A stretch of 64,000 nucleotides of DNA from an archaeon. Lineage in GTDB: Archaea > Nanobdellota > Nanobdellia > Pacearchaeales > GW2011-AR1. The stretch's first letter is position 1. Each line of letters opens with the position of its first letter. A program made the translations under genes and the position numbers. The stretch lies in contig JABHWZ010000004.1 of the NCBI GenBank assembly GCA_018657525.1, forward strand, positions 26,245 to 90,244, in the 5' to 3' direction. Below, one piece after another: positions 578 to 36,663 of the stretch. The notes under the pieces were generated by a model. That model ran no database searches, was not told the DNA's origin, and saw nothing but the letters and a program-made list of their open reading frames with translations.

Positions 578-1330
578 TTAAGGAGAATCTATCATAATAT
601 CTTGGACTAAGCCTTGAAAACAATCCTTAAAATGAGCATCAATTCCCAGGTTTCCTTTTTGAAATGGAGCACTATGACCACAATATCTTTTAATATCCAT
701 TACCATTGTATCATATAGTTGAGATGGGAAACCAGAAGGATAACCATTTAACGGAAGCACTTTCTCATTAAGAAACTCTTCTATCAAAGAATATTGTTCT
801 TGAGTAGCATACGGAAACCTTAACTTAACTTCAGATTCTCCCATTTGAGCTTCTATAAAATTTAATAGTATTTCTGTTTTTTCTTCATTTGTAGTAGGAA
901 CTTCCCCCGAGGTTAAAGCAATTCCATTCTCTGGAGTAGGATAAACATATTCTAAAATTGTAAATGGATACATACTCAAATGAATTATACGAGATTCTTT
1001 TTTCCGATTCAATTCTTCTTTTTCAGCTTTCTCTGTTTCTTGTCCTAATCTTCTTCTCTCAGGTTCCCTTTTCTGGTTTAATCTTTTTTTATCTTCTCCT
1101 TTTGCTTTTTCCTTCCGAATAGCATAATTAAATCCTTTTAATGTTACTTCAAATTCACCCCTAGATCCTCTGTGAGTTTGCAACCACATCTCTGGAAACT
1201 CCCGCGAAAAATTGCCTTCCTCGTCCAAAGTTAGAGTTCCTATATCTAATGGTTTATGCTGAGTAGTATAAATTAAGTCTGCCATAAATCTTGTTCGATT
1301 TTGTAACTTATAAAGATAGTTGTATAACAA
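578..1330 (-). CDS. hypothetical protein with central K/E/R-rich low-complexity linker
   Basis: 250-aa ORF in an AT-rich genome where random ORFs this long are unlikely; charged linker KEKAKGEDKKRLNQKREPERRR; no recognised domain. Confidence 0.5.
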   Translation of the reverse strand: MLYNYLYKLQNRTRFMADLIYTTQHKPLDIGTLTLDEEGNFSREFPEMWLQTHRGSRGEFEVTLKGFNYAIRKEKAKGEDKKRLNQKREPERRRLGQETEKAEKEELNRKKESRIIHLSMYPFTILEYVYPTPENGIALTSGEVPTTNEEKTEILLNFIEAQMGESEVKLRFPYATQEQYSLIEEFLNEKVLPLNGYPSGFPSQLYDTMVMDIKRYCGHSAPFQKGNLGIDAHFKDCFQGLVQDIMIDSP

Positions 1331-1414: not shown

Positions 1415-3115
1415 TTATTCTGCTAATTGATACAAACGAACTTTATTTTGTTCAGTGTCAGTATAAGCTAATGTTCCATTGCCAATAGCCATAGACCTCA
1501 TTGCAGCCCATCCACCAGGATGATTTTGCGGATAAAAATGTGTCATTACTTCTCCAGTATTTGCTCCTTTCTTGTAAGCTTTTACACTAGCTACAACTTC
1601 TTCTGGATCTTGAGTTACTGCCCACAATAATCCCTTTCTATCCACGCAATGATTTGAAGGAACACACCCACTATCTAATTGTTCTCCGTTAATCATCTTA
1701 AATGATTTTTCATAAGCTTCTGTTGTTAAACTTTTATCTATTGCTACAATATCATGATTGGATTTTAAGTAAACATGATTTCCATTGATAACAATTCTTG
1801 CAGTATCATCAAAGCTAGTATTGCTATAACCTCCTGAAGGACTAAATCCTAATGGCACTCCAATTAATTTTTTCCCATCAGTTGCAACTAAAGCATTATC
1901 ATAACATTTTGGAAAATCATTTGGTCTAGTTACAAAATAATGAACCCCCTCATCTTCTTCAACTTGCCATATTCCTACGGAAGCCCAACGACCTCTTCTT
2001 GAAAATTCACTTATTCCTTTATCTGCCAATAAATTTAATGCATCTTGAAAGCCACCTTCATTTTCAGTGATTTCTTCTAAATTTCCATTAAATCTTTTTA
2101 ATTGATTATTCCCTCCAGCATAAATTATTCCATTTGAACCAACAGAAATATTTCCTTGAAAACTAGTTGACATCCCAGCAAAACCATCAAAAGCAGCCAT
2201 AATTCCTGTATCTGCAGAAGCAACTTTTCTCCCTGTTTTAATATCATAAGCATTTAATGTTAAATTCCTATCGGCCTCACTCTCACTTTGATATCTTTGA
2301 CCTAAAACGACAAGTTTATTATCTCTATCAAAGGCTATCGCACAAGGAGTAATATCTAAAGATAATGTTCTATCTTTCAATAATGTTGGTTGAGCTATTT
2401 TGTGTTGTGTTTTCAATTCCTCATCAAATTTTGTATGTTGTTCTAAATTAAATTTTCCTTCATTTTGTTTTCTATTAAAAGAATTCCAAACTTCTCTAAC
2501 TCCTTTTTCTTCATCAAAAGGATCTGTTACCTGATATTCAAATCCTTTTTGAGTAATATTTTCAAAATATCCCAATCCCATATTAGTTTCCCTAACCATT
2601 TCTACTAATCTTTCTTTTCCTAATATAATTCCATGTGATTTTTCCAAAACTCCAATTAATAATGTTGCATCAAATCCATTCCCCTCATAGTGTCTTTTAA
2701 AAAAATCTTCTTCTAATTTAATACCTCTTTCTTCAGCTATTCTTTTATAGTCTTCTTGAGATAACATAAACATCTGTTTTGCACCAGCTTCTAATTCTTG
2801 TGCGTCCATTTGTTGAATTGGCCTTCCTAAAACTTTTTCAATTCTTCCAATAGCTTTTTCCTCTCTTTCAGCTCTTGAAACAATTATGGCCACTGGATTG
2901 TTTTCCATCATAGAATCATAAATTCCCTCGCTTTGCCCACAAAAAGAATTTTGAATCTCATCCATAGATACCTCTCGTCCTAATTGAGTTACTAAATGAG
3001 TTAATAATCCTTTGGGTGCTTGAGAAAATAAAGAAGCTTTATCTCGACCACTAGCATAATCTAAGATTCCTTTTCTAATTTGTGTTGATGTATTATCAAT
3101 AACAGTTTCTGACAT
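1415..3115 (-). CDS. hypothetical large protein (566 aa), possible beta-propeller-like C-terminal half
   Basis: long uninterrupted ORF; Gly/Asn-rich repeats (GSNGIIYAGGNN, INGNHVYL) in the C-terminal half; no signal peptide; family not recognised. Confidence 0.55.
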   Translation of the reverse strand: MSETVIDNTSTQIRKGILDYASGRDKASLFSQAPKGLLTHLVTQLGREVSMDEIQNSFCGQSEGIYDSMMENNPVAIIVSRAEREEKAIGRIEKVLGRPIQQMDAQELEAGAKQMFMLSQEDYKRIAEERGIKLEEDFFKRHYEGNGFDATLLIGVLEKSHGIILGKERLVEMVRETNMGLGYFENITQKGFEYQVTDPFDEEKGVREVWNSFNRKQNEGKFNLEQHTKFDEELKTQHKIAQPTLLKDRTLSLDITPCAIAFDRDNKLVVLGQRYQSESEADRNLTLNAYDIKTGRKVASADTGIMAAFDGFAGMSTSFQGNISVGSNGIIYAGGNNQLKRFNGNLEEITENEGGFQDALNLLADKGISEFSRRGRWASVGIWQVEEDEGVHYFVTRPNDFPKCYDNALVATDGKKLIGVPLGFSPSGGYSNTSFDDTARIVINGNHVYLKSNHDIVAIDKSLTTEAYEKSFKMINGEQLDSGCVPSNHCVDRKGLLWAVTQDPEEVVASVKAYKKGANTGEVMTHFYPQNHPGGWAAMRSMAIGNGTLAYTDTEQNKVRLYQLAE

Positions 3116-3742: not shown

Positions 3743-4693
3743 TTATCTCTTCTCCACCAATTCCCTAAACCTTTTCTGTACTCTTTCTATTGGAGTTAAC
3801 CTCGGTTGTCCCTTTCTACGAAATGGAATACAAGTATGACGAAAATCATCAAACCATCCTCCTTTACCATAATCTCCCTTAGATTCAGCACCAGATGCGA
3901 GAGCTCCAACTCTTAACAGATTAAGAGTTCCATGATCAAATGGAGGTCCAGAAAAATTATCTCGAACATATTGCCCCATCATTAAATCAAGTCCATGTTC
4001 TTTTTTCCCAAATTCAAATGTTTTATCTATAATATATGTGACCACATCTTCAGGCAATGCAAACATCTCCCCAACATATTCTGGATGTTGTAATAGTGTT
4101 AAACGCAAAGGACATCTTTTAGCTTGCTCTATTGTCATATTTTCATTAAGTCCAATTAATTTCCCTTCCTTATCTTTTTCAAACCAGTCTTCTAATTGTC
4201 TGGAGTAAACTCCTTCACCACTTAAATTATCCCAAGAGATACCAGTATGAGAATAACTATTTGGAGCCCAATAATCATTTTTTAACTTAAATCCTGAACC
4301 TAAGTTTCCACGAGGATCGCTGTCTCCATCTCTTCTTCTTGCACCTGCGTCTTTGACTTTAGCAATTAAAGACAACGTGCGTTTTCCAATCTCCGGAAGC
4401 ATCCACCCATCAATTGTTCCACAACAAGGCAAGATAATTTTTAATTCTATTTCATTAGATTCTGGATTTTTTCTTGTAGCAATCATAGTTGAAACATCCC
4501 AATAACTTTCAGTCATTTCTGGCATCCCCCTATTTTGAATTGCTAAATATCTCATTCTTGCTTCAGAAGGAAATTCTCCTTCCATGTTTGAAGCATTAGA
4601 AATAAGAGAGAACATACTATCATCTCTATCAAGATTATGCACTTCAAGAGTTTCATTCCCTAACGCAATATCCCATTTTGCCTGTTCTGCCAT
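3743..4693 (-). CDS. hypothetical protein (316 aa)
   Basis: long ORF; conserved-looking patches PCCGTIDGW and GDSDPRGNLGSGF; family not recognised; adjacent to two tRNA genes. Confidence 0.55.
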   Translation of the reverse strand: MAEQAKWDIALGNETLEVHNLDRDDSMFSLISNASNMEGEFPSEARMRYLAIQNRGMPEMTESYWDVSTMIATRKNPESNEIELKIILPCCGTIDGWMLPEIGKRTLSLIAKVKDAGARRRDGDSDPRGNLGSGFKLKNDYWAPNSYSHTGISWDNLSGEGVYSRQLEDWFEKDKEGKLIGLNENMTIEQAKRCPLRLTLLQHPEYVGEMFALPEDVVTYIIDKTFEFGKKEHGLDLMMGQYVRDNFSGPPFDHGTLNLLRVGALASGAESKGDYGKGGWFDDFRHTCIPFRRKGQPRLTPIERVQKRFRELVEKR

Positions 4694-5364: not shown

Positions 5365-6036
5365 ATGGAATTGATTTTAGGAATAGATGATGCAGGCAGA
5401 GGTCCAGTTATCGGTCCAATGGTTTTGGCAGGAGTTCTTTTAGATTCAAAAACTGAAAGTGAACTTAAAAAATTAGGCGTGAAAGATTCTAAAGATTTAA
5501 CTCCCAAACGAAGAGGAATATTAGCTGAAAAGATTAAAGAGAAAGCAGAAACATTTGAGATAGAAATAATTTCTGCTCCAGATATCGACGATAAAAACGC
5601 GCAAGGAATAAAGTTAAATGAAGTAGAAGCTTTCGCGTGTGCAAATATAATAAATAAAATAAATAAAGGATACAAAAAAATAAAAGTAATCCTTGATTGC
5701 CCGTCGGTAAGTCTAATAAAATGGGGAGATTTCTTAAAAACTAAAATTAATAATTTATCTAATTTGGAAATAAGATGTGAACACAAAGCAGACAAAAATC
5801 ATGTTGCAGTTTCAGCAGCTTCGATAATTGCAAAAGAAACTCGAGAAAGTGAAATGACAAAACTAAAAGAAAAATACGGAAATGAAATTGGGTCAGGTTA
5901 TTGTTCTGACCCTTTAACCCAAAAATTTTTAGAAAAATTTTTACATAAATATGACAATGACGGAATTTTTAGAAAAACTTGGACAACTTATAAACGGGCA
6001 AAAGAAAAACTCAAACAAAGAAAACTCAGTTTTTAA
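5365..6036 (+). CDS. rnhB: ribonuclease HII
   Basis: N-terminal GIDDAGRGPVIGPMVLAG is the RNase HII catalytic motif (GIDEAGRGP..GP); 223 aa is typical for the family. Confidence 0.9.
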   Translation: MELILGIDDAGRGPVIGPMVLAGVLLDSKTESELKKLGVKDSKDLTPKRRGILAEKIKEKAETFEIEIISAPDIDDKNAQGIKLNEVEAFACANIINKINKGYKKIKVILDCPSVSLIKWGDFLKTKINNLSNLEIRCEHKADKNHVAVSAASIIAKETRESEMTKLKEKYGNEIGSGYCSDPLTQKFLEKFLHKYDNDGIFRKTWTTYKRAKEKLKQRKLSF

Positions 6037-6363: not shown

Positions 6364-9222
6364 ATGACTTATATCAAAAAATTGGTGATGAAAGGTTTCA
6401 AGAGTTTTGTAAAACAAACAGAATTACCTTTCGCTCAAGGAATAAATGTTGTCTTAGGACCCAATGGTTCTGGAAAATCCAATGTCTCCGACGCACTTTG
6501 TTTTGTCTTGGGAAGACTTTCGGTAAAATCAATGCGCGCAGCTAAGGCCAAAAATTTAATTTTTATGGGTTCTAAATCAGCGTCGCCAGCTAAAGAAGCT
6601 TCAGTAGAAATAATCTTTGAAAATCAAGATAGAATTTTCGCTTTAGATACAAATGAAATTTCAGTAAAAAGAATAGTTAGAAAAAATGGACAATCAATTT
6701 ATAAAATAAATAACGAAACAAAAACACGGCAAGATGTCCTCGCATTACTTGCACAAGTAGGAATTGACCCAAACGGGTTTAACATAATTCTTCAAGGAGA
6801 GATCCAAAATTTTGTAAGAATGCATACAGAAGAAAGAAGAAAAATAATTGAGGAGGTTTCGGGGATATCTACTTACGAATCGAGAAAATCCAAGGCGATT
6901 AAAGAATTAGATAAAACAGAAGAAAGGTTAAAAGAAGTCTTAGCAGTTTTAAGAGAACGAACAGCTTATCTAAATAACTTAGAAAAAGAAAGACAACAAG
7001 CCTTGCGTTATAAAAAACTAGAAAAAGATATCAAAAGATATAAGGCAAGTATAATTTATATCGACCTCTCCAAAAAGAAAAAAGAAGCCAATAGGATTCA
7101 AGGGGATATTCAGATAAAATTAAAAGAGATAGATAAAATAAAAAAATTAATTTTATCTGATGAAATTTTAATGGGTTCTCTTGAACAAAAAATATCTCAG
7201 ATAAATTCTACAATTTCTAATTCTACTGGAGTAGAACAAGAAAAATTAAACACAGAGATTTCTGATATTCGGGCGGAGTTAGCAGGATTAAATGTAAAAA
7301 TAGAAAATTATGAAACAAAGATAATTCAAATACAAAGACAAAAACAAGATTTGCAAGAAAAAGTTAGGGAAGGAATAATTACTTTGAAAGAACTTCAAAA
7401 AGAGTCTCCGACAATTATTAAAAAACAAGAAGAACTTTCTTCAAAAAAACAAGAACTTGAAAAGTTAGAAGAACAGAGAAAAAAGTTTTATATGATTAAG
7501 ACTGAATTAAAATCTATAAGAGAACGGCTTCAAGATAAAAAATCAGTTCTTCAAAGTTACGTCGACGAATCAGCTTTTTTGCTAAAAGAAATAGAATCAA
7601 TAACATTAGAACTTTTTGATAAAAAAACAGATCCAGAAAAATTACATCATTTAAAAATTGCTTTATCCAAAAAAAGAACGCACCTAGATGATTTATCAAA
7701 AAAGGAAATTGAGCTAGACAAAGTTTCACACACAAATGAATACGAAATCTCAAAACAAAATTTAGTCATAGAAAAAATATCAAAAATTGATGTTTGCCCA
7801 TTATGTAAATCAAAAATGACTCCTGAGCATATACATGTTATTGGTTCTGAAGTAAAACCAAAAATAGATTTACTAAAAAAAGAAATTGAAGAATCAGACA
7901 AAGAATTAAATTTAATTTATACTCAAAAAGAAGTTTTAAAAAAAGATATAGATCAGATAGAAACAGAAATAAATAAGAGAGAATCCGATTTATTAAAACT
8001 TTCTCAAATACATGGGAAGACAAAGCAGATAAAAGTGCTTCAAGAAAAAGTTGGATCGATTAAAAAAGAATTAGTTGAATTAAATAAACGGAAAAATTAT
8101 TTAGAAGAAAATTTCGATGAATCTTCAAATGTCGAAACAAAATATGAAACGGCCATGGTGGAAGTTCAAGAAATATCTTCAAGATCTGAGGAAACAATTG
8201 ATTCAGAAATTTCATTTAAACAAAGAGAATTAGAACGCTCAAAGATTACTTTAAAACAATTATGTCGAGATGAACAAGATATTCAAGAAGAATCTATTTC
8301 ATTAAGAAAAGAGATTGAACAAAAAGAACAATTACTCGAAAAAAAGAAAAAACAAGATGAAGAATTGAGCAAACAATTTAAGTCGCTAATTGCTGAAAGA
8401 GATTCATTACAAAATAAGATTAGAGAAATTGTATCTGATTTATCCTCTAAAAAAAATTCAATACATTTTATTGAACAAACAATTAATAATTTTAAAATAG
8501 AAAAAGCAAAGGTCGACGCTGAAACAGAGAATTTAGAAATTGAAATTCTAGAATTCCCTAATGTTGAAATAATGAAAATTCCAAAAGAAACCCTTCAAGA
8601 AAGATTAAATAAATCTCAGGAAATTATTTTAAGAATCGGCTCAGTTAATATGCGTTCTTTAGAAGTTTACGATGCAATAAAAAAAGAATATGATTCAATC
8701 AAAGAAAAAACAGAAATTATTGCTAAGGAAAAAGAAGACATATTGAAAATAATTAAGACAATAGATATCAAAAAGAAGAAAGCATTTATGCAAACCTTCC
8801 ATCAATTAAATGAAATTTTTTCTAGAAACTTTGCGCAAATTTCAACTAAGGGGCAAGTCTCATTAGAATTAGAAGATAAGAAAGACCCTTTCACTGCCGG
8901 AGTAGGAATTGTAGTAAAAACCGGGCATGGGAAATATTTCGACGTTACTTCGCTTTCAGGTGGAGAACAAACAATGGTAGCGCTTTCATTAATCTTCGGG
9001 ATACAAGAATTAAATCCTTACTGCTTTTATGTTCTAGACGAAATCGATGCGGCATTAGATAAACGAAACTCAGAGAGACTTGCAAGTCTTCTAAAAAAAT
9101 ACATGCAGAGAGGACAGTATATAGTAATAACCCACAACGATGAAATCATAAACAGTGCTACAAATATTTACGGAGTTTCAATGCACGATGGAATTTCTAA
9201 AGTAATAAGTTTGAAGATTTAA
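6364..9222 (+). CDS. SMC-family ATPase with coiled-coil arm and central CxxC zinc-hook in place of a hinge (SMC head / Rad50-like hook)
   Basis: N-terminus KGFKSF...VVLGPNGSGKSNVSDALCFVLG (SMC Walker A); C-terminus LSGGEQTMVALSLIFGIQELNPYCFYVLDEIDAALD (SMC signature plus Walker B); about 600 aa of K/E-rich coiled coil; central VCPLCKSK near aa 480; no Gly-rich hinge domain; 952 aa is short for canonical SMC. Confidence 0.85.
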   Translation: MTYIKKLVMKGFKSFVKQTELPFAQGINVVLGPNGSGKSNVSDALCFVLGRLSVKSMRAAKAKNLIFMGSKSASPAKEASVEIIFENQDRIFALDTNEISVKRIVRKNGQSIYKINNETKTRQDVLALLAQVGIDPNGFNIILQGEIQNFVRMHTEERRKIIEEVSGISTYESRKSKAIKELDKTEERLKEVLAVLRERTAYLNNLEKERQQALRYKKLEKDIKRYKASIIYIDLSKKKKEANRIQGDIQIKLKEIDKIKKLILSDEILMGSLEQKISQINSTISNSTGVEQEKLNTEISDIRAELAGLNVKIENYETKIIQIQRQKQDLQEKVREGIITLKELQKESPTIIKKQEELSSKKQELEKLEEQRKKFYMIKTELKSIRERLQDKKSVLQSYVDESAFLLKEIESITLELFDKKTDPEKLHHLKIALSKKRTHLDDLSKKEIELDKVSHTNEYEISKQNLVIEKISKIDVCPLCKSKMTPEHIHVIGSEVKPKIDLLKKEIEESDKELNLIYTQKEVLKKDIDQIETEINKRESDLLKLSQIHGKTKQIKVLQEKVGSIKKELVELNKRKNYLEENFDESSNVETKYETAMVEVQEISSRSEETIDSEISFKQRELERSKITLKQLCRDEQDIQEESISLRKEIEQKEQLLEKKKKQDEELSKQFKSLIAERDSLQNKIREIVSDLSSKKNSIHFIEQTINNFKIEKAKVDAETENLEIEILEFPNVEIMKIPKETLQERLNKSQEIILRIGSVNMRSLEVYDAIKKEYDSIKEKTEIIAKEKEDILKIIKTIDIKKKKAFMQTFHQLNEIFSRNFAQISTKGQVSLELEDKKDPFTAGVGIVVKTGHGKYFDVTSLSGGEQTMVALSLIFGIQELNPYCFYVLDEIDAALDKRNSERLASLLKKYMQRGQYIVITHNDEIINSATNIYGVSMHDGISKVISLKI

Positions 9223-9299
9223 TATTTTCTATAAATGTTTAAACTTGAAAGTAGTTACAAAATATAAAGATTTATAAAGTAGATTATTTAAAAAATTAT

Positions 9300-10280
9300 A
9301 TGACTGATTTAAAATTGGAAAATAATGATTTAGTTGAAAGATTACGTGATGGAGAATTAAACGTTGCCACAATTTCTTCTGCAATTGAAGGAGATTATGA
9401 AAGCGGGAAAGCTGTGGAAAGGCAATTCGCGGGACTTAGTATTGATGAACTAGAAGAATTGGGATTAGAAGTTATTGAATTTTTATCATTTATTACCCCC
9501 TTTATGGACGAATCTGAACCTCTTGAGAAAAGAGTGTTGGAATTAAAAGGGAAATCTTATTCACAACAATTGGAGCGAGCCAGATTAATTGCTTGGCAAG
9601 GTTTTGGATCAAAGGATTACAGCTCAATTAAGGGAGTTCAAGCATTATTGGAACAGCATAAAGATTGTGATTTACGGGAAGGGGAATTGAACGATTGTAA
9701 ATGTGTTAAGGAGATAAAAGCTAAGTTAGATTTATACAGTAGATTATTTAGGGGAGAGTTATCTTTGTTTTATACCAAAGGAATAGATATTTTTGAAACT
9801 GAAGAATATAAGTTAAGAATTCATCCAGGATCATGGGAAAATTTTGGTGGGGTTGAATTACATCTTTTTAGTCAAGGGAAATCAATAATGCAAGTGGGGG
9901 GTAAAATTCATAACTATGCTGAGATTCGTTCAATTCATGGGGGAAAAAAAGCAGGAGACGCTATTGCAGAGTTTAAAGAATCAACAGGAGTCCATCCAGC
10001 CAATTTGAATTTATTATTATTTTTAAAGTTAAGTCAACACCTAAGACATAAAAAATTAACTATCCGTGGAAGGACGAGTAGAGCATTTAATATGAAAAAT
10101 GTTGATAGTCCATTATATTTAATTCCCAGAAATTATTTTAGATTGAAAGCAAATCCAGAAAATGGATTATATGAATTTGAGGAGACTAAGAGAGATGCAC
10201 TATTAGAAAAATTTGCAAAAAATAATCCAATAATAGAGAATGCATTTGCTTCAATGGATTCATACCTTAGTGCTTTATAA
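9300..10280 (+). CDS. hypothetical protein (326 aa), possible partner of the upstream SMC-like gene
   Basis: long ORF 78 bp downstream on the same strand; acidic N-terminus; no recognisable domain. Confidence 0.5.
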   Translation: MTDLKLENNDLVERLRDGELNVATISSAIEGDYESGKAVERQFAGLSIDELEELGLEVIEFLSFITPFMDESEPLEKRVLELKGKSYSQQLERARLIAWQGFGSKDYSSIKGVQALLEQHKDCDLREGELNDCKCVKEIKAKLDLYSRLFRGELSLFYTKGIDIFETEEYKLRIHPGSWENFGGVELHLFSQGKSIMQVGGKIHNYAEIRSIHGGKKAGDAIAEFKESTGVHPANLNLLLFLKLSQHLRHKKLTIRGRTSRAFNMKNVDSPLYLIPRNYFRLKANPENGLYEFEETKRDALLEKFAKNNPIIENAFASMDSYLSAL

Positions 10281-10300
10281 GTTTGAAGATTTGAAAGTTA

Positions 10301-10798
10301 TTAATAACAATCATCTGGCATTTCCAATTCCCAACTTTCCCAATCCAACCGTGGATACGCATTGTTATACGTTCTATTTTCAAAAGACCTTTCCATTCCA
10401 AATCCATAAAAGCTCCCATAAAAATCACGATAATCAATTAATTTTACTTCTTCAACAGGAAATAATTGCATTTCATCTCCAAAATCATCTTCTAATCTTG
10501 ATTCAAATTCCCACCCCTCACTTTGATACGGAACCACTTTAAAGGTAAATGGAGAATTAGCAATATACCTTGCCAAAAGTCTGTGGTTCCCTCCATCTTT
10601 AAATTTGTCCCCCTCTTCTTCAATTTCTATGGAATAGCTTGGCATATACACTTTTGGTTCTATTTCTATAAGGGTGGGCATAGAAATTTCATCTCCAGCT
10701 TCAATCCCCCTAACTAAAGCATCAACTAAAACAATGTGACAATTTCTTTCCCAACAAAATATTTTATCTTTATCCCAATCAAAAAATCTGTGTTCCAT
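10301..10798 (-). CDS. hypothetical acidic protein (165 aa)
   Basis: ORF with Trp/acidic-rich composition; no known motif. Confidence 0.45.
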   Translation of the reverse strand: MEHRFFDWDKDKIFCWERNCHIVLVDALVRGIEAGDEISMPTLIEIEPKVYMPSYSIEIEEEGDKFKDGGNHRLLARYIANSPFTFKVVPYQSEGWEFESRLEDDFGDEMQLFPVEEVKLIDYRDFYGSFYGFGMERSFENRTYNNAYPRLDWESWELEMPDDCY

Positions 10799-10865: not shown

Positions 10866-12110
10866 TTAGTAGTAACTTTCACCAAACTCTTCAGTCTGGG
10901 AAGGTTTCTTACCAAGTAAAACAATTAATACTACTAATAAAACTAGGAATACAATTCCTAAAATTACTGTTAATACTACAACTGGGTTGCTTGCTACTGA
11001 TTTACCTTCTACGTTCATGCTTAGAGGAACTGTACTTACAAGTTCGTCTCCGGAAAACACACTTACATCGAAAGCGTATGATCCTTCAGCATTTGCTACA
11101 GCACTAACCTTAACTATCTTGCTTGATCCGGCTGGAACAGCAACAACAGCAGATTCAGTACTAGAGGCAACGTCCGCAGAATTTTCTGTAACAACTCTGT
11201 ATACTTTTAATTTGTCAGTTGGGTTAACAACTAATAAATCATATACAGCTTCTTCTCCAGCTGCAATTGTTTTGCTTGCACTTGTCACAATAACGCTATT
11301 TGAAAAGTCGTTTTTAACAACAATTTGTTTAACAGCAACTGTTTCAGAATCTTCATTAGATACTGTAACCTCAACTGTATAAACACCTGCTTCAGCAGAA
11401 TAAGGAACATTCAAGTTGATTACTCCACTTGTACTGTCCTCATCATCGTCATCACAATTACTATCACAATCTTCCATAGCTACTAAGTCACCGAAATAAG
11501 CTGTCTTTTCGACACCTAATTCAACGATTCTAGCAGTTACATAAAGATCATCTAAGTCATTGTATCCTCTGTTTTTCAATACAACTGTTACCGGTAATTT
11601 ATCCCCAGCTTCAACTGTTTGACTAACAGTGATTGACTTAACTTCTGCATTGTATGAAGGTCTTTGAACCATTAAAGTAATTTCTGCTAATTCTGAATTG
11701 TACTCTTTACCATCTATTTCAATAGCTAAAGTTAACTCATCACTAACATCATCTTTAAGTTCATAGGGTACTGAAAGAACCAAAATTTTTGCGTATCTTG
11801 AACCATTTTCAATATCAAATGGAGCAGTGATAGCATCAACTTCGACTTTTTCACCTTCAAGTTCTGCTTCAATAGTAACATCTGTGTCATCATTAGTGGC
11901 AGTAAATTCTACTCGTACAAGAATTTTTTCGCCAGCAATAACTGCCACATCGTTCGCAACTCTCATACCATTAACTTCAACCTTTGCGGAATCTGTGATT
12001 CCAGGGGTTGCAGCAACAGCACTAACAGTAGCCATTAAAACCAGAACACTTGTGATTGCAACAAGAGAAACCAAAAGTTTCTTTGCATTCATTTTTGCTT
12101 TTTGTCTCAT
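10866..12110 (-). CDS. secreted cell-surface (S-layer-like) protein with N-terminal signal peptide and C-terminal transmembrane anchor
   Basis: N-terminal hydrophobic signal (LLVSLVAITSVLVLMATVSAVAA); Thr/Val/Ser-rich beta-rich body; acidic stretch DCDSNCDDDDED; C-terminal TM VVLTVILGIVFLVLLVVLIVLLGKK followed by a short tail; GC higher than surroundings, consistent with high expression. Confidence 0.6.
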   Translation of the reverse strand: MRQKAKMNAKKLLVSLVAITSVLVLMATVSAVAATPGITDSAKVEVNGMRVANDVAVIAGEKILVRVEFTATNDDTDVTIEAELEGEKVEVDAITAPFDIENGSRYAKILVLSVPYELKDDVSDELTLAIEIDGKEYNSELAEITLMVQRPSYNAEVKSITVSQTVEAGDKLPVTVVLKNRGYNDLDDLYVTARIVELGVEKTAYFGDLVAMEDCDSNCDDDDEDSTSGVINLNVPYSAEAGVYTVEVTVSNEDSETVAVKQIVVKNDFSNSVIVTSASKTIAAGEEAVYDLLVVNPTDKLKVYRVVTENSADVASSTESAVVAVPAGSSKIVKVSAVANAEGSYAFDVSVFSGDELVSTVPLSMNVEGKSVASNPVVVLTVILGIVFLVLLVVLIVLLGKKPSQTEEFGESYY

Positions 12111-14908: not shown

Positions 14909-15901
14909 TTATTTATAATCTTCAAGTTCAACATTTTCATAACTGACTTCTTTACCTCGCACAGTTAAGATTCCAGTTTGACCAGAACTTAAACAACCTG
15001 AATTCCAGAATAATTCATCAGTGTATTTTCCTTCTTCTACAACTTCTCCATTAGCATTAGTCGCTCTGTGACCTGTTCCGTGGAAATGCCCACTTATCGC
15101 CTTTTTAATTCCTAATTCTTTATATAATTTAGCCAATCCTTCATTTCCTCTGTTCCCTGTTTTTACTTCAACCGGAACTCCAGCTGCTTTGTATCTTTCC
15201 ACATGGGGCAAGGGAATAACTGTTCCTTTAGCTAAATGATTTTCTTCATCCAAAAAATCTTCAGTTACTTCTCCGAATTTAGTAACATCAACGCAATTTT
15301 CAATTCCTTTAAACTTTCTAGGAACATGACAAAATACAATTGTTTTATCTGGATTTGTAACTAATCTTTTTAAATCATTAATATTTGTATAATTTATTCC
15401 TTTGACTTGTTTACCCTCTTTCAGGGCCACTACATATTCTTCTAATTTTCCAAAAGGAGTAATTCCTTCTTGAGACATTAAATAATTCCCACTTGGCATT
15501 CTTGCGTCGTCTCCCAATTTATATGATCCAGTGCTAGGTCCAAAATCTGCTCCAGGTAAAAATACTAAATCATGTCCATCTGCTTCCACTTTCTGAGGTT
15601 TATTCACATTAATTAAATTATCACATTCTCCTCCTAATTTTTCCATTACTGACTCAAATGCTAACATCATATCATGACCTGCTGGCTGGACATACGCTTC
15701 TAAGCCACTTTTACCAACTCTCTCTAGAACTTCTGCAATATTTCTTTGACTTTCATCTAAACTCTTTCCAACTTCTGCTAAATCACCATTTAAAATAATC
15801 TTCTCAATTCCCTTCTCTTTAAAAGCTCTAAGAGACCTCTCCAGATTTTCTAAACTACCATGAATATCTGAAATAACCCCGTATTGCACTTCTTTTATCA
15901 T
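14909..15901 (-). CDS. calcineurin-like metallophosphoesterase
   Basis: motifs VISDIHGS (D-x-H), LNGDLAE (GD), and GHFHGTGHR (GH-x-H) in the correct order. Confidence 0.7.
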   Translation of the reverse strand: MIKEVQYGVISDIHGSLENLERSLRAFKEKGIEKIILNGDLAEVGKSLDESQRNIAEVLERVGKSGLEAYVQPAGHDMMLAFESVMEKLGGECDNLINVNKPQKVEADGHDLVFLPGADFGPSTGSYKLGDDARMPSGNYLMSQEGITPFGKLEEYVVALKEGKQVKGINYTNINDLKRLVTNPDKTIVFCHVPRKFKGIENCVDVTKFGEVTEDFLDEENHLAKGTVIPLPHVERYKAAGVPVEVKTGNRGNEGLAKLYKELGIKKAISGHFHGTGHRATNANGEVVEEGKYTDELFWNSGCLSSGQTGILTVRGKEVSYENVELEDYK

Positions 15902-19604: not shown

Positions 19605-20894
19605 ATGGACGGAGATAAATATAGAATAGTGATGGGGATTTATGATCGTGGTGTAGCTTTTGCATTAAAAAACGGGTTAAATTCTCATTTTAGAAAAAGG
19701 CAGATTGCCTCACAAGTTGAATTAGGTGAAACAACTACAAGTAGAGCAGTAATGACTTTAACACTTCCTCCTGGAACAGAGCTTTGTAAGAACGGATTTG
19801 ATAAATTAGTTGGTGAAAGTAAATGGTTTCCTTCGGATCTAAAAAAACGTCCCAGAAATATTCAAATAACAAAGCTTGAAGGTGCTCAAGAACCAGTTCC
19901 AGTAGAATCTACCCCTGATTATTCTAATCATCCAGAGGCAATTGCTCAGATGCAAGCAGGTTACGAGAAAAAATTAGTAGCATCAGAAAGAAGAGAATTA
20001 GACGCTTTTGAGAAAATATGCGAACTTGAGGTTAAATTAGAATCAAAACCCGCTGCTTTAGAAAAAGAAGTTATCGTCAAAAAACCAGCAATAATCACTT
20101 CCCCTCTACAAGGATTTTATTCTTTTATGAGAACATTAAAAGATGGTTGTGACTTCGCTGCAGCAGATTATGATGTTTTAAGATTTGCCGAGGGAATAGG
20201 ATTCTCAGGAACTGAAAAAAGATCGGAGTTAGTCGGAAGAATACTCGGAGTAGATTTCAAAGATGATACCGTTCAAGTTCATTTAGAAAGATTAAGACAG
20301 CAAGGTCAATCAATCAACAAAACATATCTGGATAAAGTCCAAAAAGAACTTAAAGAAAGAGAAGCACAAATTGATTTGTATGGAAAACAAAAAACTTCTG
20401 GAGTTGGAGATGAATTATTGGATGTTTTAAAAACTTACTCTGAAACAGCAAGTAAAAGAATTGGAGAATTAAATACTGAACTTGAAAATAAAAAAAGGGT
20501 AGTTGCAGAAGCAAAAGCAATTCTGCCTAGAGTAGAGGGCGTCTTAGAAAATTATGATCAAATGGTAGAAACAGCATCTAACGTTTCTAAAAGAAGTGAC
20601 ATAACAATTCAATTTCCTGTTTTAATTAACGGGTTTGAAAACCAAAATTTATTTATAACTTTGTTAAAAGCAGGGTATCAAAATTTTAATGATAGAGTAG
20701 CTGGCTTCCTGGGAGAAAAAGGTTTCGCTCCAATGGAGCCTATAGCAGAAGATTTTCTATCTTTCACAGGTTACTTAGACAAAAGAAAAACTCCGCCAAA
20801 AGTAGTGCAGTACTTTAATGAATTATTTTCTCAAGAATACTCTCCAACTGCAAGAGTCGGGTTAACTCCTAGAACAATGGCTTTCCATTGGTGA
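19605..20894 (+). CDS. hypothetical protein (429 aa) with coiled-coil segments, inserted between fusA and tuf on the opposite strand
   Basis: long ORF; no recognised domain. Confidence 0.5.
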   Translation: MDGDKYRIVMGIYDRGVAFALKNGLNSHFRKRQIASQVELGETTTSRAVMTLTLPPGTELCKNGFDKLVGESKWFPSDLKKRPRNIQITKLEGAQEPVPVESTPDYSNHPEAIAQMQAGYEKKLVASERRELDAFEKICELEVKLESKPAALEKEVIVKKPAIITSPLQGFYSFMRTLKDGCDFAAADYDVLRFAEGIGFSGTEKRSELVGRILGVDFKDDTVQVHLERLRQQGQSINKTYLDKVQKELKEREAQIDLYGKQKTSGVGDELLDVLKTYSETASKRIGELNTELENKKRVVAEAKAILPRVEGVLENYDQMVETASNVSKRSDITIQFPVLINGFENQNLFITLLKAGYQNFNDRVAGFLGEKGFAPMEPIAEDFLSFTGYLDKRKTPPKVVQYFNELFSQEYSPTARVGLTPRTMAFHW

Positions 20895-33168: not shown

Positions 33169-36100
33169 CTACTTGTTTGCATTATCCACAGTTTTTGCCT
33201 TGGCTGTTTTCTTATCTTTGTCTTTCTTAATTAACGGACCAATAACATTAACTAACAATCCAGGAAGACCAGTTCCTACTGGCACCGGCTGATTAATAAT
33301 AATATTCTCAACAACACTTGTCAAATTATCCTGGCTACCTTTAATTGAAGCATTAATAAATTGTTTAACTGGCGTCTCGAAAGTAGCTCTTGCAAGTATC
33401 GAAGATTTTTGCGCAATTATTCCCATTCTTGTAACACCCTTAACTTCACCAGTATTACACATAGCATCTGAGATTAATTTTAAATGTCTCTTGTCGATAT
33501 CGATACCTTGACTATTCAACACTTCATTAACTTCATCCATAATTAATTGTCTCGCAGCCTCGATACCAAGAACTTTTGCAACTTCATGAAGATCGTTTGA
33601 AACTATTTTTTTCTTATTAACTTCTTTTAATTTTAACACTTCATCTAAGTTTGTCCCAAGCGTCATAATCACATAATTTGATTCTTTCTTTGCCACAAGA
33701 ATTTGCTCTACGCCCTTAACTCCTGAAATAATTGTATCCTTTAATTTTTCTTTTAATTTATAAATTTCTTTAAAATTAAACTCTTCAGCATTAACCTTAA
33801 TTGCATCTGGTTTTTCTTTTACTTTAAATCCTAAATCTTCTAATCTTTCTGTAATTTTTTTGATTGAAGTATGAGTTTGTTGTAGACCTTTTTTATTAAT
33901 AATTATTTCAATATTCTTTTCACTAAAATCTAAATTTATTTCTGAAGAAATTTCTTTTAACTTAACTTCTTTAATTTTTTCTGCAAAAACTCTTGCATCT
34001 TTTTCATTATTATATTCTTTCTCTAAATAGATTTCCATTTTTGGAGAAGAAGGTTTTTTTCTTGCATCGAAAATTTCAATCAATCTTGGTAATCCTGATG
34101 TGACTTGCATCTCTGCAACACCTGCCATATGGAAAGTATTTAGAACCATCTGCGTCGAACTCTCACCAAATGATTGTGCAGTAATTAATCCAATCGCTTC
34201 CCCGAATTCAACTTGTCCATCGTTCAAATGTAATTTACAAACATCTTTACCATCTTCACCAAATTTGAACTGGATTATTCTATTTCCAGAATCTCTTACC
34301 GTGCCGTCGTATTCAACTCTTAAATCTTGTAATGCATTAGCTAATCTTCTATACAAATAACCTGATTTTGGAGTTCTTAATGCAGTATCCATAAGTGAAT
34401 CTCTACCAGTAATTGCTTGAAAGAAAAATTCATCTGGTCTTAATCCTTTAATAAATGGACTATGGATAAATCCTCTTGACCTCGGAGACAAGTCTCCTTT
34501 TTTAAAGAATGACAATGTTCTATCATTATAACCGATTCCAATTCTTCCGCCCATAAATGCTTGCTGACCTACACATGAAGCCATCTGAGTAATATTCAAA
34601 ACATTTCCACCACCACCAGATTTAATCATATGACTTACTGGATTTGTAGCCGGGAATTTTTCTTTAACAATTGCACCAATCTTTGTTCGGATCTCATTTA
34701 ATGTTTGAAGAACTTTAATCTCTCTTGATTCTTCTGCAGTCTTACCAGGAATAATCTCCAATGTTTTTTCATTATAAGATTGAAGAATTTCTTGAGTTTT
34801 CTTTTCAGATTTTTTAATAATTTCTTCCCCTTCTTTTACAACATCTTCAGATAAATCCAAATCTTCTACTGAGATTGTAATTCCTCTTGAAGTTAAATAT
34901 TTTGTACCCAAATCAAAAACTTTCTTTAAAGTTCCAACCGCTTCAATTCTACCTAAATTTCTGTCTAGCTCTTTTACTAATTCTCCATCTTCTTCTGCAA
35001 AAGCTGTTTTGTCAACAACCCCACTTTCAATTTTTCCACCTTTGACCACTATAGAACTATTCTTAAAGTCAATCTTAGGAATAACTTCTGAGATTATATC
35101 TAATCCAGTGATTTGTTTCTTAGTAATTTCAGAATCAATTCCCGAGTTATATAATAACTGATTTGCTTCTGCTTTTGTTAACTCTGCTAGTCCTAATAAA
35201 TATCCCCCTGTAATTGAATCTGCTTGCGTTCCAAGTAAATTAGTATTATTCTTTGGAGAGATCAAATTTTGCTTAACATCCAATAAAATCTTCGCTTCAG
35301 CACGAGCCTCTTCGGTTTGAGGACTATGGATATTCATCTCATCACCATCAAAATCAGCGTTATAAGGGAATGTTGCCGCAGGATGTAATCTAAAAGTTCG
35401 TCCTGGTAAAACTTTAACATAATGAGCCATTAAACTTCCTCGATGTAACGACGGATGCCGATTAAATAAAACAATGTCTCCATCTTGTAAGTGTCTTTCA
35501 ACTCTATACCCAATATCTAATTCTTCAATAATTTCTTCTTTTAATTCTTCAGTAATCTTTTTTCTTTTCCCATCTGGCCTAATAATATAATTTGCTCCAG
35601 GATATTCTTTTCCTTTTTTAATTAATTTTTTCAATTTTTCAATATTTAAATCATTCACTGTTTCAGCAAAAGTAACTATCTCAGCAATTTCATAAGGAAC
35701 CCCAACTTCATTAATTTCTAAGGAAGGATCTGGAGATACAACTGAACGAGCAGAATAATTAACTCGCTTTCCTGCAAGGTTCTTTCTAATTCTTCCTTCT
35801 TTTCCTTTAATTCTTTCTGTAATTGTCTTCAATGGTTGTCCTGATCGATGTCTTGCAGGAGGAATTCTCGTAGTAGTATTATCAAAGAATGTCGTAATAT
35901 GAAATTGCAATAAGTCCCACAAATCCTCAATGATAACTTCTGGAGCACCAGCATTTAAATTTTCCCATAGTCTTTGATTAGCCCGGATAATGTCTGAAAG
36001 TTTATGAGTTAAATCATCTTCTGATCTCTCCCCTGACTCCAAAATAATACTTGGCCTAATTGTCACAGGAGGAACAAGCAACATTGTGAGAATCGCCCAT

Positions 36101-36663
36101 TCTGGTCTTGCTGAATTGGGATCAACGCCTATTTTTTCAAATTCTTCATCAGGAATATTAGTTAACATCTCTCGAACCTGAGTTGGAAAAAGTCTTTTTT
36201 TCCCAATATAAAAACTAGTAGGTTTCTCTAATTTCACCCTTGGATGCTCAACTCCACAATAAGGACATTTTTTAACATCCTTAGCTTTTTTAGCTCTTTC
36301 ACTTAAAGAATATTTCTTCATTTTTTCTTCGTTCAATAATAATTTCCCACAATCATGACAGAAAGATCTCAAAGCAATTTCAACTAATGGAATATATTTT
36401 AGATGCATAACTGGTCTTGCTAAATCAATACTCCCTGGATGTCCCAAACATTCTTTTAATCTTCCACCACAAGTTCTACATCTAACTCCCGGATCAACTG
36501 CCCCCATTCTTAAATCCATCAATCCACCATCGACAGGGTATCCATCAATATCATAAAGTTCTGGAGTTACTATTTTCGCCGAAGATATTTTCTTAATTTT
36601 CTCAGGACTAACTAATGAAAACTTTATATTCTTTATTTTTTTTCTAATTATTTTTGGTGCCAT
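33169..36663 (-). CDS. rpoA: DNA-directed RNA polymerase subunit A, unsplit (A' and A'' fused in one 1164-aa ORF)
   Basis: N-terminal zinc motifs CRTCGGRLKECLGHPG; catalytic NADFDGDEMN; bridge helix TALRTPKSGYLYRRLANALQDL; trigger-loop region SFGESSTQMVLNTFHMAGVAE (normally the start of A'') all in one frame. Confidence 0.95.
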   Translation of the reverse strand: MAPKIIRKKIKNIKFSLVSPEKIKKISSAKIVTPELYDIDGYPVDGGLMDLRMGAVDPGVRCRTCGGRLKECLGHPGSIDLARPVMHLKYIPLVEIALRSFCHDCGKLLLNEEKMKKYSLSERAKKAKDVKKCPYCGVEHPRVKLEKPTSFYIGKKRLFPTQVREMLTNIPDEEFEKIGVDPNSARPEWAILTMLLVPPVTIRPSIILESGERSEDDLTHKLSDIIRANQRLWENLNAGAPEVIIEDLWDLLQFHITTFFDNTTTRIPPARHRSGQPLKTITERIKGKEGRIRKNLAGKRVNYSARSVVSPDPSLEINEVGVPYEIAEIVTFAETVNDLNIEKLKKLIKKGKEYPGANYIIRPDGKRKKITEELKEEIIEELDIGYRVERHLQDGDIVLFNRHPSLHRGSLMAHYVKVLPGRTFRLHPAATFPYNADFDGDEMNIHSPQTEEARAEAKILLDVKQNLISPKNNTNLLGTQADSITGGYLLGLAELTKAEANQLLYNSGIDSEITKKQITGLDIISEVIPKIDFKNSSIVVKGGKIESGVVDKTAFAEEDGELVKELDRNLGRIEAVGTLKKVFDLGTKYLTSRGITISVEDLDLSEDVVKEGEEIIKKSEKKTQEILQSYNEKTLEIIPGKTAEESREIKVLQTLNEIRTKIGAIVKEKFPATNPVSHMIKSGGGGNVLNITQMASCVGQQAFMGGRIGIGYNDRTLSFFKKGDLSPRSRGFIHSPFIKGLRPDEFFFQAITGRDSLMDTALRTPKSGYLYRRLANALQDLRVEYDGTVRDSGNRIIQFKFGEDGKDVCKLHLNDGQVEFGEAIGLITAQSFGESSTQMVLNTFHMAGVAEMQVTSGLPRLIEIFDARKKPSSPKMEIYLEKEYNNEKDARVFAEKIKEVKLKEISSEINLDFSEKNIEIIINKKGLQQTHTSIKKITERLEDLGFKVKEKPDAIKVNAEEFNFKEIYKLKEKLKDTIISGVKGVEQILVAKKESNYVIMTLGTNLDEVLKLKEVNKKKIVSNDLHEVAKVLGIEAARQLIMDEVNEVLNSQGIDIDKRHLKLISDAMCNTGEVKGVTRMGIIAQKSSILARATFETPVKQFINASIKGSQDNLTSVVENIIINQPVPVGTGLPGLLVNVIGPLIKKDKDKKTAKAKTVDNANK

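What the first reader, a model, noticed from the sequence alone, without database searches (positions are those of the whole stretch)
6364..10280. SMC-head protein in which the hinge is replaced by a central CxxC zinc hook, followed by an uncharacterised 326-aa gene
The 952-aa protein has textbook SMC-type N- and C-terminal head motifs (GPNGSGKSNVSDALCFVLG; LSGGEQTMVALSLIFGIQ...YVLDEIDAALD). The roughly 600-aa arm between them is continuous K/E-rich coiled coil with no Gly-rich hinge domain. Exactly at its midpoint (near aa 480) sits VCPLCKSK, the arrangement of a Rad50/SbcC zinc hook. Canonical condensin SMC is about 1150-1200 aa with a hinge. SMC head plus zinc hook is the architecture of hinge-less SMC-like proteins, whose cellular roles are still poorly defined. 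The co-directional 326-aa ORF (9300-10280) has no recognisable kleisin, ScpA or Mre11 motifs and could be a novel partner. No scpA, scpB or mre11 is adjacent.
Basis: partly seen in the sequence, partly recalled or inferred. Interest (0 to 1): 0.7.

Follow-up and report, generated by a model that had tools for sequence, protein, structure and literature searches.

The report
Natural SMC with a zinc hook
The chromosome-organising SMC protein of this tiny DPANN archaeon, and of its whole order, has lost the usual hinge and carries a Rad50-type zinc hook instead, a swap so far known only from engineered proteins; the neighbouring 326-aa gene is unrelated to it.

Summary
ORF 6364-9222 encodes a 952-aa protein whose ATPase head and both arms are those of archaeal SMC. 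NCBIfam SMC_prok_A scores 532 bits against 108 for Rad50, and the Pyrococcus Smc head matches at E 1e-101. No hinge is detectable even at E<=10. CPLC sits at aa 478-481, the exact midpoint.

[quoted passage not shown] CPxC is invariant in 120/120 close homologues, in all full-length 50%-identity cluster representatives of 946-1023 aa (down to 39% identity), and in about 52 GTDB species representatives labelled Pacearchaeota, Nanoarchaeota or Woesearchaeota.

About 54 aa replace about 229 aa of the nearest hinge-bearing Woesearchaeota SMCs. The arms stay colinear and nearly invariant in length. The hook clade has 94% bootstrap support, is nested among hinge SMCs, and shares an upstream RNase HII gene with two of four hinge-type loci examined. 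It is therefore the lineage's SMC orthologue.

The 326-aa ORF is a rare GNAT-fold protein. It is absent from this position in relatives, and its homologues lie elsewhere. It is not a partner.

No kleisin was found in the window; genome-wide presence could not be tested. I found no published description.

The parts
6364..9222 (+). smc gene, 952 aa: SMC head and SMC arms, with a Rad50-type zinc hook in place of the hinge
   Evidence: NCBIfam SMC_prok_A scores 532 bits. The Pyrococcus Smc head structures 5xei, 5xns and 4i99 match at E 1e-101 to 1e-84 by sequence, and 5xns and 4i99 give TM-scores of 0.87-0.89 by fold.
6364..6864 (+). N-terminal half of the ABC ATPase head (aa 1-167), with Walker A GPNGSGKS at nt 6457-6480 and the Q-loop Q144
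   Evidence: G32, N34, G35, G37, K38, S39 and Q144 are invariant in 35 sequences down to 37% identity.
6865..7785 (+). Ascending arm helix (aa 168-474), with breaks at aa 206-215, 346-351 and 416-423
   Evidence: AlphaFold2 secondary structure. It aligns colinearly with the N-arm of the hinge-type SMC P0158, query aa 1-454 to target aa 1-451. The distance from Walker A to CPxC is 446 aa in 100 of 133 homologues.
7726..7887 (+). Exchanged apex segment (aa 455-508), which stands where about 229 aa of hinge plus flanks lie in the nearest hinge-type SMC; it includes the Pfam Rad50_zn_hook match at aa 468-508
   Evidence: A profile of this region hits the P. furiosus Rad50 hook structures 6zff and 1l8d at E 3e-10.
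7795..7806 (+). CPLC (aa 478-481), the predicted zinc ligands, within the conserved motif [LIM]D.CP.CK.K[IM]T.EH
   Evidence: C478, P479 and C481 are invariant in all alignments.
7822..8841 (+). Descending arm helix (aa 487-826), with breaks at aa 587-589, 606-612, 730-740 and 759-768
   Evidence: It aligns colinearly with the C-arm of P0158, query aa 509-951 to target aa 681-1139. The distance from CPxC to LSGGE is 386 aa in 110 of 133 homologues.
8842..9219 (+). C-terminal half of the head (aa 827-952): signature LSGGE at nt 8953-8967, Walker B and D-loop YVLDEIDA at nt 9028-9051, and H-loop H924
5365..6036 (+). RNase HII gene, the conserved upstream neighbour of smc
   Evidence: Pfam RNase_HII at E 3.8e-46. 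It lies upstream of hook-type smc in 45 of about 55 loci, with a median gap of 140 nt. It is also upstream of hinge-type smc in L006 and L071.
9300..10280 (+). 326-aa lineage-specific ORF with an N-terminal helical domain and a C-terminal GNAT-like fold. It is listed because it is part of the finding, but it is NOT part of the SMC system.

Best explanation
This is the chromosomal SMC (condensin-type Smc) of a Pacearchaeota-lineage DPANN archaeon. In an ancestor of this lineage, the roughly 230-aa hinge segment was replaced by a roughly 54-aa Rad50-type zinc hook, while the SMC head and nearly full-length SMC arms were kept.

Shown: the domain composition; homology of the apex to Rad50 hooks; invariance of CPxC; colinearity and length constancy of the arms; intact ATPase motifs; monophyly of the clade and its nesting among hinge-bearing Woesearchaeota SMCs; and the conserved rnhB-smc neighbourhood.

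Inferred: two protomers dimerise constitutively by jointly coordinating one Zn2+ through four cysteines, C478 and C481 from each, as Rad50 does. The arms zip into a rod, and ATP-driven head engagement and release drive DNA entrapment and loop extrusion as in Smc-ScpAB. The hook supplies only the stable arm-tip link that the hinge normally provides.

An unlinked kleisin partner (ScpA, with or without ScpB) is assumed but was not found.
For: Head and arms are SMC:
- NCBIfam SMC_prok_A scores 531.9 bits, with aa 3-474 aligned to model positions 1-463. Rad50 scores 108 and ASRP 105.
- PDB sequence search gives the Pyrococcus Smc head at E 1e-101 and Rad50 at 1e-15.
- Foldseek gives TM-scores of 0.87-0.89 to 5xns and 4i99.

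The apex is a Rad50-type hook:
- Pfam PF04423 matches the window fragment at 26.6 bits, above the gathering score, and matches 18 of 25 clade members.
- The clade profile hits the Rad50 hook structures 6zff and 1l8d at E 3e-10 and human 5gox at 3e-5. CPxC aligns to CPVC, and T.EH aligns to TDEH. The next unrelated hit is at E 0.003.

Conservation:
- CPxC is present in 120/120 close homologues, in all full-length 50%-identity cluster representatives of 946-1023 aa down to 39% identity, and in about 52 GTDB species loci.
- ATPase motifs are invariant.

The swap is precise:
- Query aa 455-508 replace aa 452-680 of P0158, and the arms are colinear.
- Arm lengths are almost fixed at 446 and 386 aa.

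Orthology:
- A neighbour-joining tree of the heads gives 94/100 bootstrap support for the clade, nested among hinge SMCs from Woesearchaeota MAGs.
- RNase HII lies upstream in both hook and hinge types.

Feasibility:
- An engineered B. subtilis Smc carrying the P. furiosus Rad50 hook supports normal growth (PMC5344682).
- Hook and hinge are interchangeable in Rad50 as well (PMC6969161).
Against: - No kleisin (ScpA) or ScpB was detected in the 64-kb window or next to smc in any related locus. Genome-wide presence could not be checked, and divergent archaeal kleisins can escape Pfam.
- I could not show that these genomes lack a second, hinge-bearing SMC or a separate Rad50.
- Zinc binding and dimerisation are inferred from homology only. 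The AlphaFold2 run was a monomer.
- The protein falls below the NCBIfam SMC equivalog cutoff (532 against 729 bits), as expected when about 200 model positions are missing.
- The tree is neighbour-joining on heads only and midpoint-rooted.
Confidence: 0.72

Rival explanations
1. It is functionally a Rad50-like or dual-purpose DNA-repair and tethering ATPase. In a reduced genome, the hook-bearing SMC bridges DNA ends or sister DNAs through hook-hook contacts and works without a kleisin, possibly replacing Rad50.
For: The apex is homologous to Rad50 hooks. No kleisin was found in the window or in syntenic loci. No Rad50 or Mre11 was seen in the window. The neighbours include DNA-repair and replication genes: RNase HII, AP endonuclease 2 and DnaG.
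Against: The head and both arms are SMC-type, not Rad50-type. No Mre11-like gene is adjacent; the Metallophos ORF at 14909-15901 matches only weakly and is separated from smc by several genes on the other strand. The conserved neck region next to the head (aa 168-214) is what kleisin-binding SMCs conserve. Absence of Rad50 from these genomes was not shown.
Confidence: 0.13
2. It is an accessory SMC-like paralogue that coexists with a canonical SMC. Candidates are the ASRP/ClsN (coalescin) type or a defence ATPase such as Lamassu LmuB or Wadjet JetC.
For: ASRPs are archaeal, SMC-related and carry a zinc hook (PMC9389158). PADLOC gives weak hits: mad3 at 170 bits on the C-terminal head only, LmuB at 76 bits and JetC at 50 bits.
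Against: ASRP scores 105 bits against a 300-bit cutoff, and ASRPs are about 590 aa. The defence hits are far weaker than the SMC hit at 532 bits. The gene sits in a housekeeping, syntenic position shared with two hinge-type SMC loci of related DPANN MAGs, L006 and L071. It is near-universal and single-copy in the loci recovered, and it nests inside SMC in the tree. No defence-system partner genes are adjacent.
Confidence: 0.1
3. The CPxC is only a structural turn or an intramolecular metal or disulfide site at the coiled-coil tip. Dimerisation, if any, occurs elsewhere.
For: Relatives nested within the clade (779-804 aa 'mini' forms) have lost the whole apex, including CPxC, yet persist. This suggests the hook is not absolutely required.
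Against: Two cysteines per chain cannot complete a tetrahedral site alone. The flanking motif and register match Rad50 hooks, where dimerisation has been shown structurally. CPxC is strictly invariant across hundreds of sequences, while the surrounding arm diverges to 14-46% identity.
Confidence: 0.05

Closest known systems
Prokaryotic/archaeal Smc of Smc-ScpAB (NCBIfam TIGR02169 SMC_prok_A; Pyrococcus Smc heads 5xei, 5xns, 4i99)
   Same: ABC head with all ATPase motifs; a neck and joint-like break; antiparallel arms of about 300 aa that align colinearly; tree position; and the upstream RNase HII neighbour also seen in two of four hinge-type loci of related DPANN MAGs.
   Different: There is no hinge domain: PF06470 is absent, and about 229 aa are replaced by about 54 aa. 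The total length is 952 aa instead of about 1140-1190. The score falls below the equivalog cutoff. No kleisin has yet been identified.
[quoted passage not shown] 2017, PMC5344682)
   Same: The same architecture, namely SMC head and arms plus an archaeal Rad50-type hook. The chimera supports normal growth, and its function depends on arm length. This parallels the near-invariant arm lengths seen here.
   Different: This one is natural, ancient (members diverge to about 37-40% identity) and fixed in a whole archaeal lineage. It has not been tested experimentally.
Rad50/SbcC zinc hook (Pfam PF04423; PDB 1l8d, 6zff, 5gox)
   Same: CPxC at the apex of an antiparallel coiled coil. The flanking motif ...D.CP.CK.KIT.EH aligns to ...KCPVCGRELTDEH, with a profile E-value of 3e-10.
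   Different: The head and arms are not Rad50: the NCBIfam Rad50 model scores 108 bits against a 700-bit cutoff. There is no Mre11/SbcD neighbour.
Archaea-specific SMC-related proteins (ASRP: ClsN/coalescin, Sph1/Sph2; Yoshinaga et al. 2022, PMC9389158)
   Same: Archaeal, with an SMC-related head and a zinc hook instead of a hinge.
   Different: ASRPs are a separate family of about 590 aa. This protein scores 105 bits against a 300-bit cutoff on that model and 532 bits on SMC, and its arms are about twice as long.
Hinge-less SMC of marine Actinobacteria (Sussfeld et al. 2025, PMC12153180)
   Same: A natural SMC-clade protein lacking the hinge.
   Different: Those lack the CXXC hook altogether and are bacterial. 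They resemble the 779-804-aa 'mini' relatives noted here more than the window protein.

Membership tests
SMC (prokaryotic condensin Smc, TIGR02169/TIGR02168) | Split ABC ATPase head with Walker A, Q-loop, signature LSGGE, Walker B, D-loop and H-loop | tested here: met
   All motifs are present and invariant in 35 sequences. The Pyrococcus Smc head matches at E 1e-101.
SMC (prokaryotic condensin Smc, TIGR02169/TIGR02168) | Long intramolecular antiparallel coiled-coil arm homologous to SMC arms | tested here: met
   The AlphaFold2 model has helices over aa 168-474 and 487-826. The NCBIfam SMC model aligns through aa 474. The arms are colinear with the hinge-type SMC P0158.
SMC (prokaryotic condensin Smc, TIGR02169/TIGR02168) | Central hinge dimerisation domain (Pfam PF06470) | tested here: not met
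   No hit at E<=10 on aa 392-590. None is recorded among the 120 homologues. Positive controls P0158, P0160 and P0167 do carry PF06470.
SMC (prokaryotic condensin Smc, TIGR02169/TIGR02168) | Score at or above the curated equivalog cutoff | tested here: not met
   531.9 bits against 729.4 for TIGR02169, and 495.4 against 567.35 for TIGR02168. The shortfall is consistent with the missing hinge columns.
SMC (prokaryotic condensin Smc, TIGR02169/TIGR02168) | Kleisin (ScpA) and kite (ScpB) partners encoded in the genome | tested here: inconclusive
   None was found in the 64-kb window or in about 60 syntenic loci.
Rad50/SbcC | CxxC zinc hook at the coiled-coil apex (PF04423) | tested here: met
Rad50/SbcC | Rad50-type head (family model at or above cutoff) | tested here: not met
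   The best Rad50 model scores 108 bits against a 700-bit cutoff. PDB Rad50 heads match at E 1e-15, against 1e-101 for Smc.
Rad50/SbcC | Adjacent Mre11/SbcD nuclease gene | tested here: not met
   No Mre11 in the window. The only Metallophos ORF (14909-15901) matches weakly and lies about 5.7 kb away on the other strand. None is conserved near smc.
ASRP (ClsN/Sph) | NCBIfam NF045487 at or above cutoff; protein of about 590 aa | tested here: not met
   105.5 bits against 300, matching only the C-terminal head (aa 637-924), in a protein of 952 aa.
Defence SMC-like ATPases (Lamassu LmuB, Wadjet JetC) | Strong match to PADLOC models and cognate partner genes adjacent | tested here: not met
   LmuB scores 76 bits and JetC 50 bits. 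The neighbours have no PADLOC hits.
Kleisin / Mre11 (for the 326-aa ORF) | Winged-helix kleisin domains, or a calcineurin-like phosphoesterase fold, plus conserved linkage to smc | tested here: not met

The most novel reading that the evidence does not exclude
An entire, globally abundant archaeal order (Pacearchaeales-type DPANN) organises its chromosome with a natural Smc(Zn-hook) as its only SMC. Some members have gone further and deleted the apex altogether (779-804-aa forms with neither hinge nor hook). In nature, then, the SMC hinge would be a replaceable or even dispensable module, and these would be the smallest natural SMC motors. In its boldest form, the hook-SMC works without a kleisin and also covers the role of Rad50.
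Probability: 0.4. Interest if true: 0.8.

Novelty: new variant of a known kind. Interest (0 to 1): 0.62.

Why it matters
Whether the SMC hinge does anything beyond holding two arms together, such as binding DNA or acting as an entry gate, is a long-running question. The main evidence that it is dispensable comes from two engineered chimeras. Here evolution has run the same experiment: a Rad50-type hook has replaced the hinge in a large, ancient lineage, while arm length has stayed almost fixed. That supports the view that the arms and heads carry the mechanism. It also offers a compact natural SMC of 952 aa, or about 800 aa in the mini forms, for structural and single-molecule work. Finally, it is a clear case of module exchange between the SMC and Rad50 families. 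Database annotation ('chromosome segregation protein SMC') hides this difference.

Tried and rejected
- A single-sequence phmmer search of the 100-aa apex against the PDB found nothing useful. Only the clade profile revealed the Rad50 hook.
I used the full protein instead.
- The kleisin hunt found no ScpA or ScpB. It covered Pfam at relaxed E-values on unannotated ORFs of the window and on ORFs flanking hinge-type and hook-type smc in L004-L008, L071 and L073. It also covered the precomputed Pfam labels of 9 loci and clustering of all ORFs in about 60 loci.
- The ORF downstream of smc in a Thermoplasmata locus (L073, 267 aa), which sits where scpA often lies next to smc in other archaea, also gave no Pfam hit. 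Absence by Pfam is therefore weak evidence.
- Literature and supplement searches for ScpA/ScpB in Pacearchaeota gave nothing specific.
- I considered and rejected four ideas: that this is a Rad50 orthologue, an ASRP, or a defence SMC, and that the 326-aa ORF is a kleisin, an Mre11, or an Eco1-like acetyltransferase partner. The last is excluded because its linkage to smc is unique to this genome.


Full report
**Observation**

The window has about 32% G+C and mostly minus-strand genes. It carries archaeal housekeeping genes: EF-1alpha, EF-2, ribosomal proteins S7 and S12, RNA polymerase subunits B, A and H, DnaG and a class II ribonucleotide reductase.

ORF 6364..9222 (+) encodes 952 aa, and ORF 9300..10280 (+) encodes 326 aa. 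GPNGSGKS is at nt 6457-6480. LSGGEQT...YVLDEIDA is at nt 8953-9051. CPLC is at nt 7795-7806, aa 478-481.

**What the 952-aa protein is**

- Pfam SMC_N spans aa 3-945 (E 7.6e-57).
- NCBIfam ranks archaeal-type SMC_prok_A first at 531.9 bits, with aa 3-474 aligned to model positions 1-463. Rad50 (108 bits), ASRP (105), RecN and SbcC fall far behind.
- Against PDB sequences, the best matches are Pyrococcus Smc heads 5xei, 5xns and 4i99 (E 1e-101 to 1e-84). Rad50 heads reach only 1e-15.
- PADLOC defence models are weak: mad3 at 170 bits on the C-terminal head only, LmuB at 76 and JetC at 50.
- An AlphaFold2 model built from 35 clade members has mean pLDDT 80. It shows the head, two long helices (aa 168-474 and 487-826) with a few matched short breaks, and a loop at 475-486 carrying CPLC.
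- Foldseek places the head on Smc head structures, with TM-scores of 0.87-0.89 to 5xns and 4i99.

**Hinge absent, hook present**

- No SMC_hinge (PF06470) match appears at E<=0.01 on the whole protein or at E<=10 on aa 392-590.
- The same model is recorded on the related hinge-type proteins P0158, P0160 and P0167.
- Pfam Rad50_zn_hook is the top hit of the central region. It scores 26.6 bits on the 100-aa fragment, against a gathering score of 24.3, and matches 18 of 25 diverse clade members.
- A profile of 25 apex segments (alignment A2) searched against all PDB sequences returns Rad50 hooks as its four best hits. These are P. furiosus 6zff and 1l8d (E 3e-10, 43 bits) and human 5gox and 9q9h.
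- In those alignments CPxC lies on CPVC, and the following ...T.EH lies on TDEH. The next, unrelated hit is at E 0.003.
- A single-sequence search had found nothing.

**Conservation and spread**

- The database holds about 7000 relatives. The best 120 share 66-100% identity with the query (all but the identical P0001 at 66-76%), are nearly all 943-958 aa, and are named SMC from Pacearchaeota or Nanoarchaeota MAGs. All carry CPxC at 0.50 of their length.
- Among 50%-identity cluster representatives, every full-length member of 946-1023 aa has CPxC at aa 470-500, down to 39% identity.
- A scan of GTDB species representatives returned 66 loci. About 52 have a complete hook-type gene, and all of those carry the motif. 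The MAGs are labelled Woesearchaeota, Nanoarchaeota, Pacearchaeota and, in one case, Iainarchaeum.
- In a 35-sequence alignment reaching 37% identity, C478, P479 and C481 are the only invariant residues between aa 290 and 714. The ATPase motifs and the neck next to the head are densely invariant.
- Arm lengths are almost fixed. Walker A to CPxC is 446 aa in 100 of 133 sequences. CPxC to LSGGE is 386 aa in 110 of 133.

**Origin**

- Against the nearest hinge-type SMC (P0158, 1140 aa), query aa 1-454 align with target aa 1-451, and query aa 509-951 align with target aa 681-1139.
- So about 54 aa stand in for about 229 aa, and the arms are otherwise colinear.
- A neighbour-joining tree of head domains (102 sequences) puts all hook proteins in one clade with 94/100 bootstrap support. 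That clade is nested among hinge-bearing SMCs. Members of that hinge group that carry a source name (P0162, P0166, P0168) come from Woesearchaeota MAGs.
- RNase HII lies just upstream of hook-type smc in 45 of about 55 loci, with a median gap of 140 nt. It also lies upstream of hinge-type smc in L006 and L071.
- Together this argues for an in-place exchange of the dimerisation module in the orthologous gene, not for a separate paralogue.

**Mechanism**

- Inferred: by homology with Rad50, two chains share one zinc ion through C478 and C481 of each, giving a constitutive arm-tip dimer.
- Inferred: heads and arms then work as in Smc-ScpAB.
- This is plausible because a B. subtilis Smc with the P. 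furiosus hook in place of the hinge supports normal growth and remains sensitive to arm length (PMC5344682).
- The converse Rad50-hinge chimeras also function (PMC6969161; reviewed in PMC7752040).
- Not shown here: zinc binding, dimerisation, the identity of a kleisin, absence of a second SMC, or presence of Rad50-Mre11 in the same genomes.
- No ScpA, ScpB, Rad50 or Mre11 family was detected in the window. None appeared among the conserved neighbours in about 60 loci either.

**The 326-aa ORF**

- It has no Pfam, NCBIfam or PADLOC match and only 6 homologues in the large protein database.
- In the closest relative (76% identical SMC, locus L003), smc is followed directly by the convergent 409-aa gene that corresponds to 10866..12110 here. 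The 326-aa and 165-aa ORFs therefore occupy a variable slot.
- Homologues P0122 and P0124 lie next to exosome/Rpb6 genes and next to YjeF/HD genes respectively, not next to smc.
- It is neither a kleisin nor an Mre11, and there is no evidence that it is a partner.

**Comparison and novelty**

- The protein works like, and descends from, archaeal Smc, but it fails the hinge criterion and the equivalog cutoff.
- It shares the hook, but not the head, with Rad50. It is not an ASRP.
- Hinge-less SMCs described from marine Actinobacteria lack the CXXC (PMC12153180).
- Full-text searches combining SMC, zinc hook, hinge and the DPANN lineage names found only the engineered chimeras and ASRPs.
- I rate it a new variant of a known kind: real, widespread, hidden by routine annotation, and of clear interest to SMC mechanists. 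Function remains untested.

Noticed in passing
Not in the window; relatives P0147, P0148, P0150, P0155 (779-804 aa; e.g. PIU75690.1) and locus L070:400-2808: These are 'mini' SMCs nested inside the hook clade that have neither hinge nor CxxC. They lack the equivalent of query aa ~405-565, i.e. the hook plus about 75 aa of each arm strand. How they dimerise is unknown.
   Followed up: partly
Relatives P0005 (1476 aa), P0128 (1479 aa), P0134 (1483 aa): Hook-type SMCs carrying a roughly 520-aa insertion at the Walker A P-loop (within or directly after it). P0005 has intein/LAGLIDADG Pfam domains (PF14528, PF14890) and reads GPNGSGKS|S...HNS|NVSDAL.
   Followed up: no
window 5365-6036 (+) and ~55 related loci: RNase HII and smc form a strongly conserved co-directional gene pair. 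It is present in 45 of about 55 loci with a median gap of 140 nt, and also in two hinge-type loci of related DPANN MAGs (L006, L071). Any functional meaning is unknown.
   Followed up: partly
Relatives P0161 (963 aa), P0163 (943 aa), P0208, P0221, P0222, P0241-P0243, P0247 (810-838 aa): SMCs with a normal hinge sequence but arms shortened by roughly 100-170 aa per strand. Arm length seems unusually plastic across these related archaeal SMCs, yet it is rigidly fixed within the hook clade.
   Followed up: no
window 33169-36663 (-): A single 1164-aa ORF contains Rpb1 domains 1 to 5. RNA polymerase subunit A therefore appears to be encoded as one gene rather than the usual archaeal split into A' and A'', and no separate A'' ORF follows it.
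   Followed up: no
window 9300-10798: The slot between smc and the conserved convergent 414-aa gene (10866-12110, present downstream in 38 loci) holds two lineage-specific ORFs here: the 326-aa GNAT-fold protein and a 165-aa ORF with no detectable family. Other genomes carry different genes in this slot, for example a 206-aa protein that looks like an isoaspartate methyltransferase (assigned by eye from its N-terminal sequence, not tested), found in 17 loci.
   Followed up: partly
window 1415-3115 (-), 3743-4693 (-), 19605-20894 (+), 578-1330 (-): Several sizeable ORFs (566, 316, 429 and 250 aa) have no Pfam family even at relaxed thresholds. This is typical of DPANN genomes.
   Followed up: no
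locus L071 (contig CAZOXR010000023.1): A contig labelled 'uncultured Methanosarcinales archaeon' carries a hinge-type SMC that is 44% identical to the window protein, with the DPANN-like rnhB-smc arrangement. This may be a mis-binned DPANN contig.
   Followed up: no
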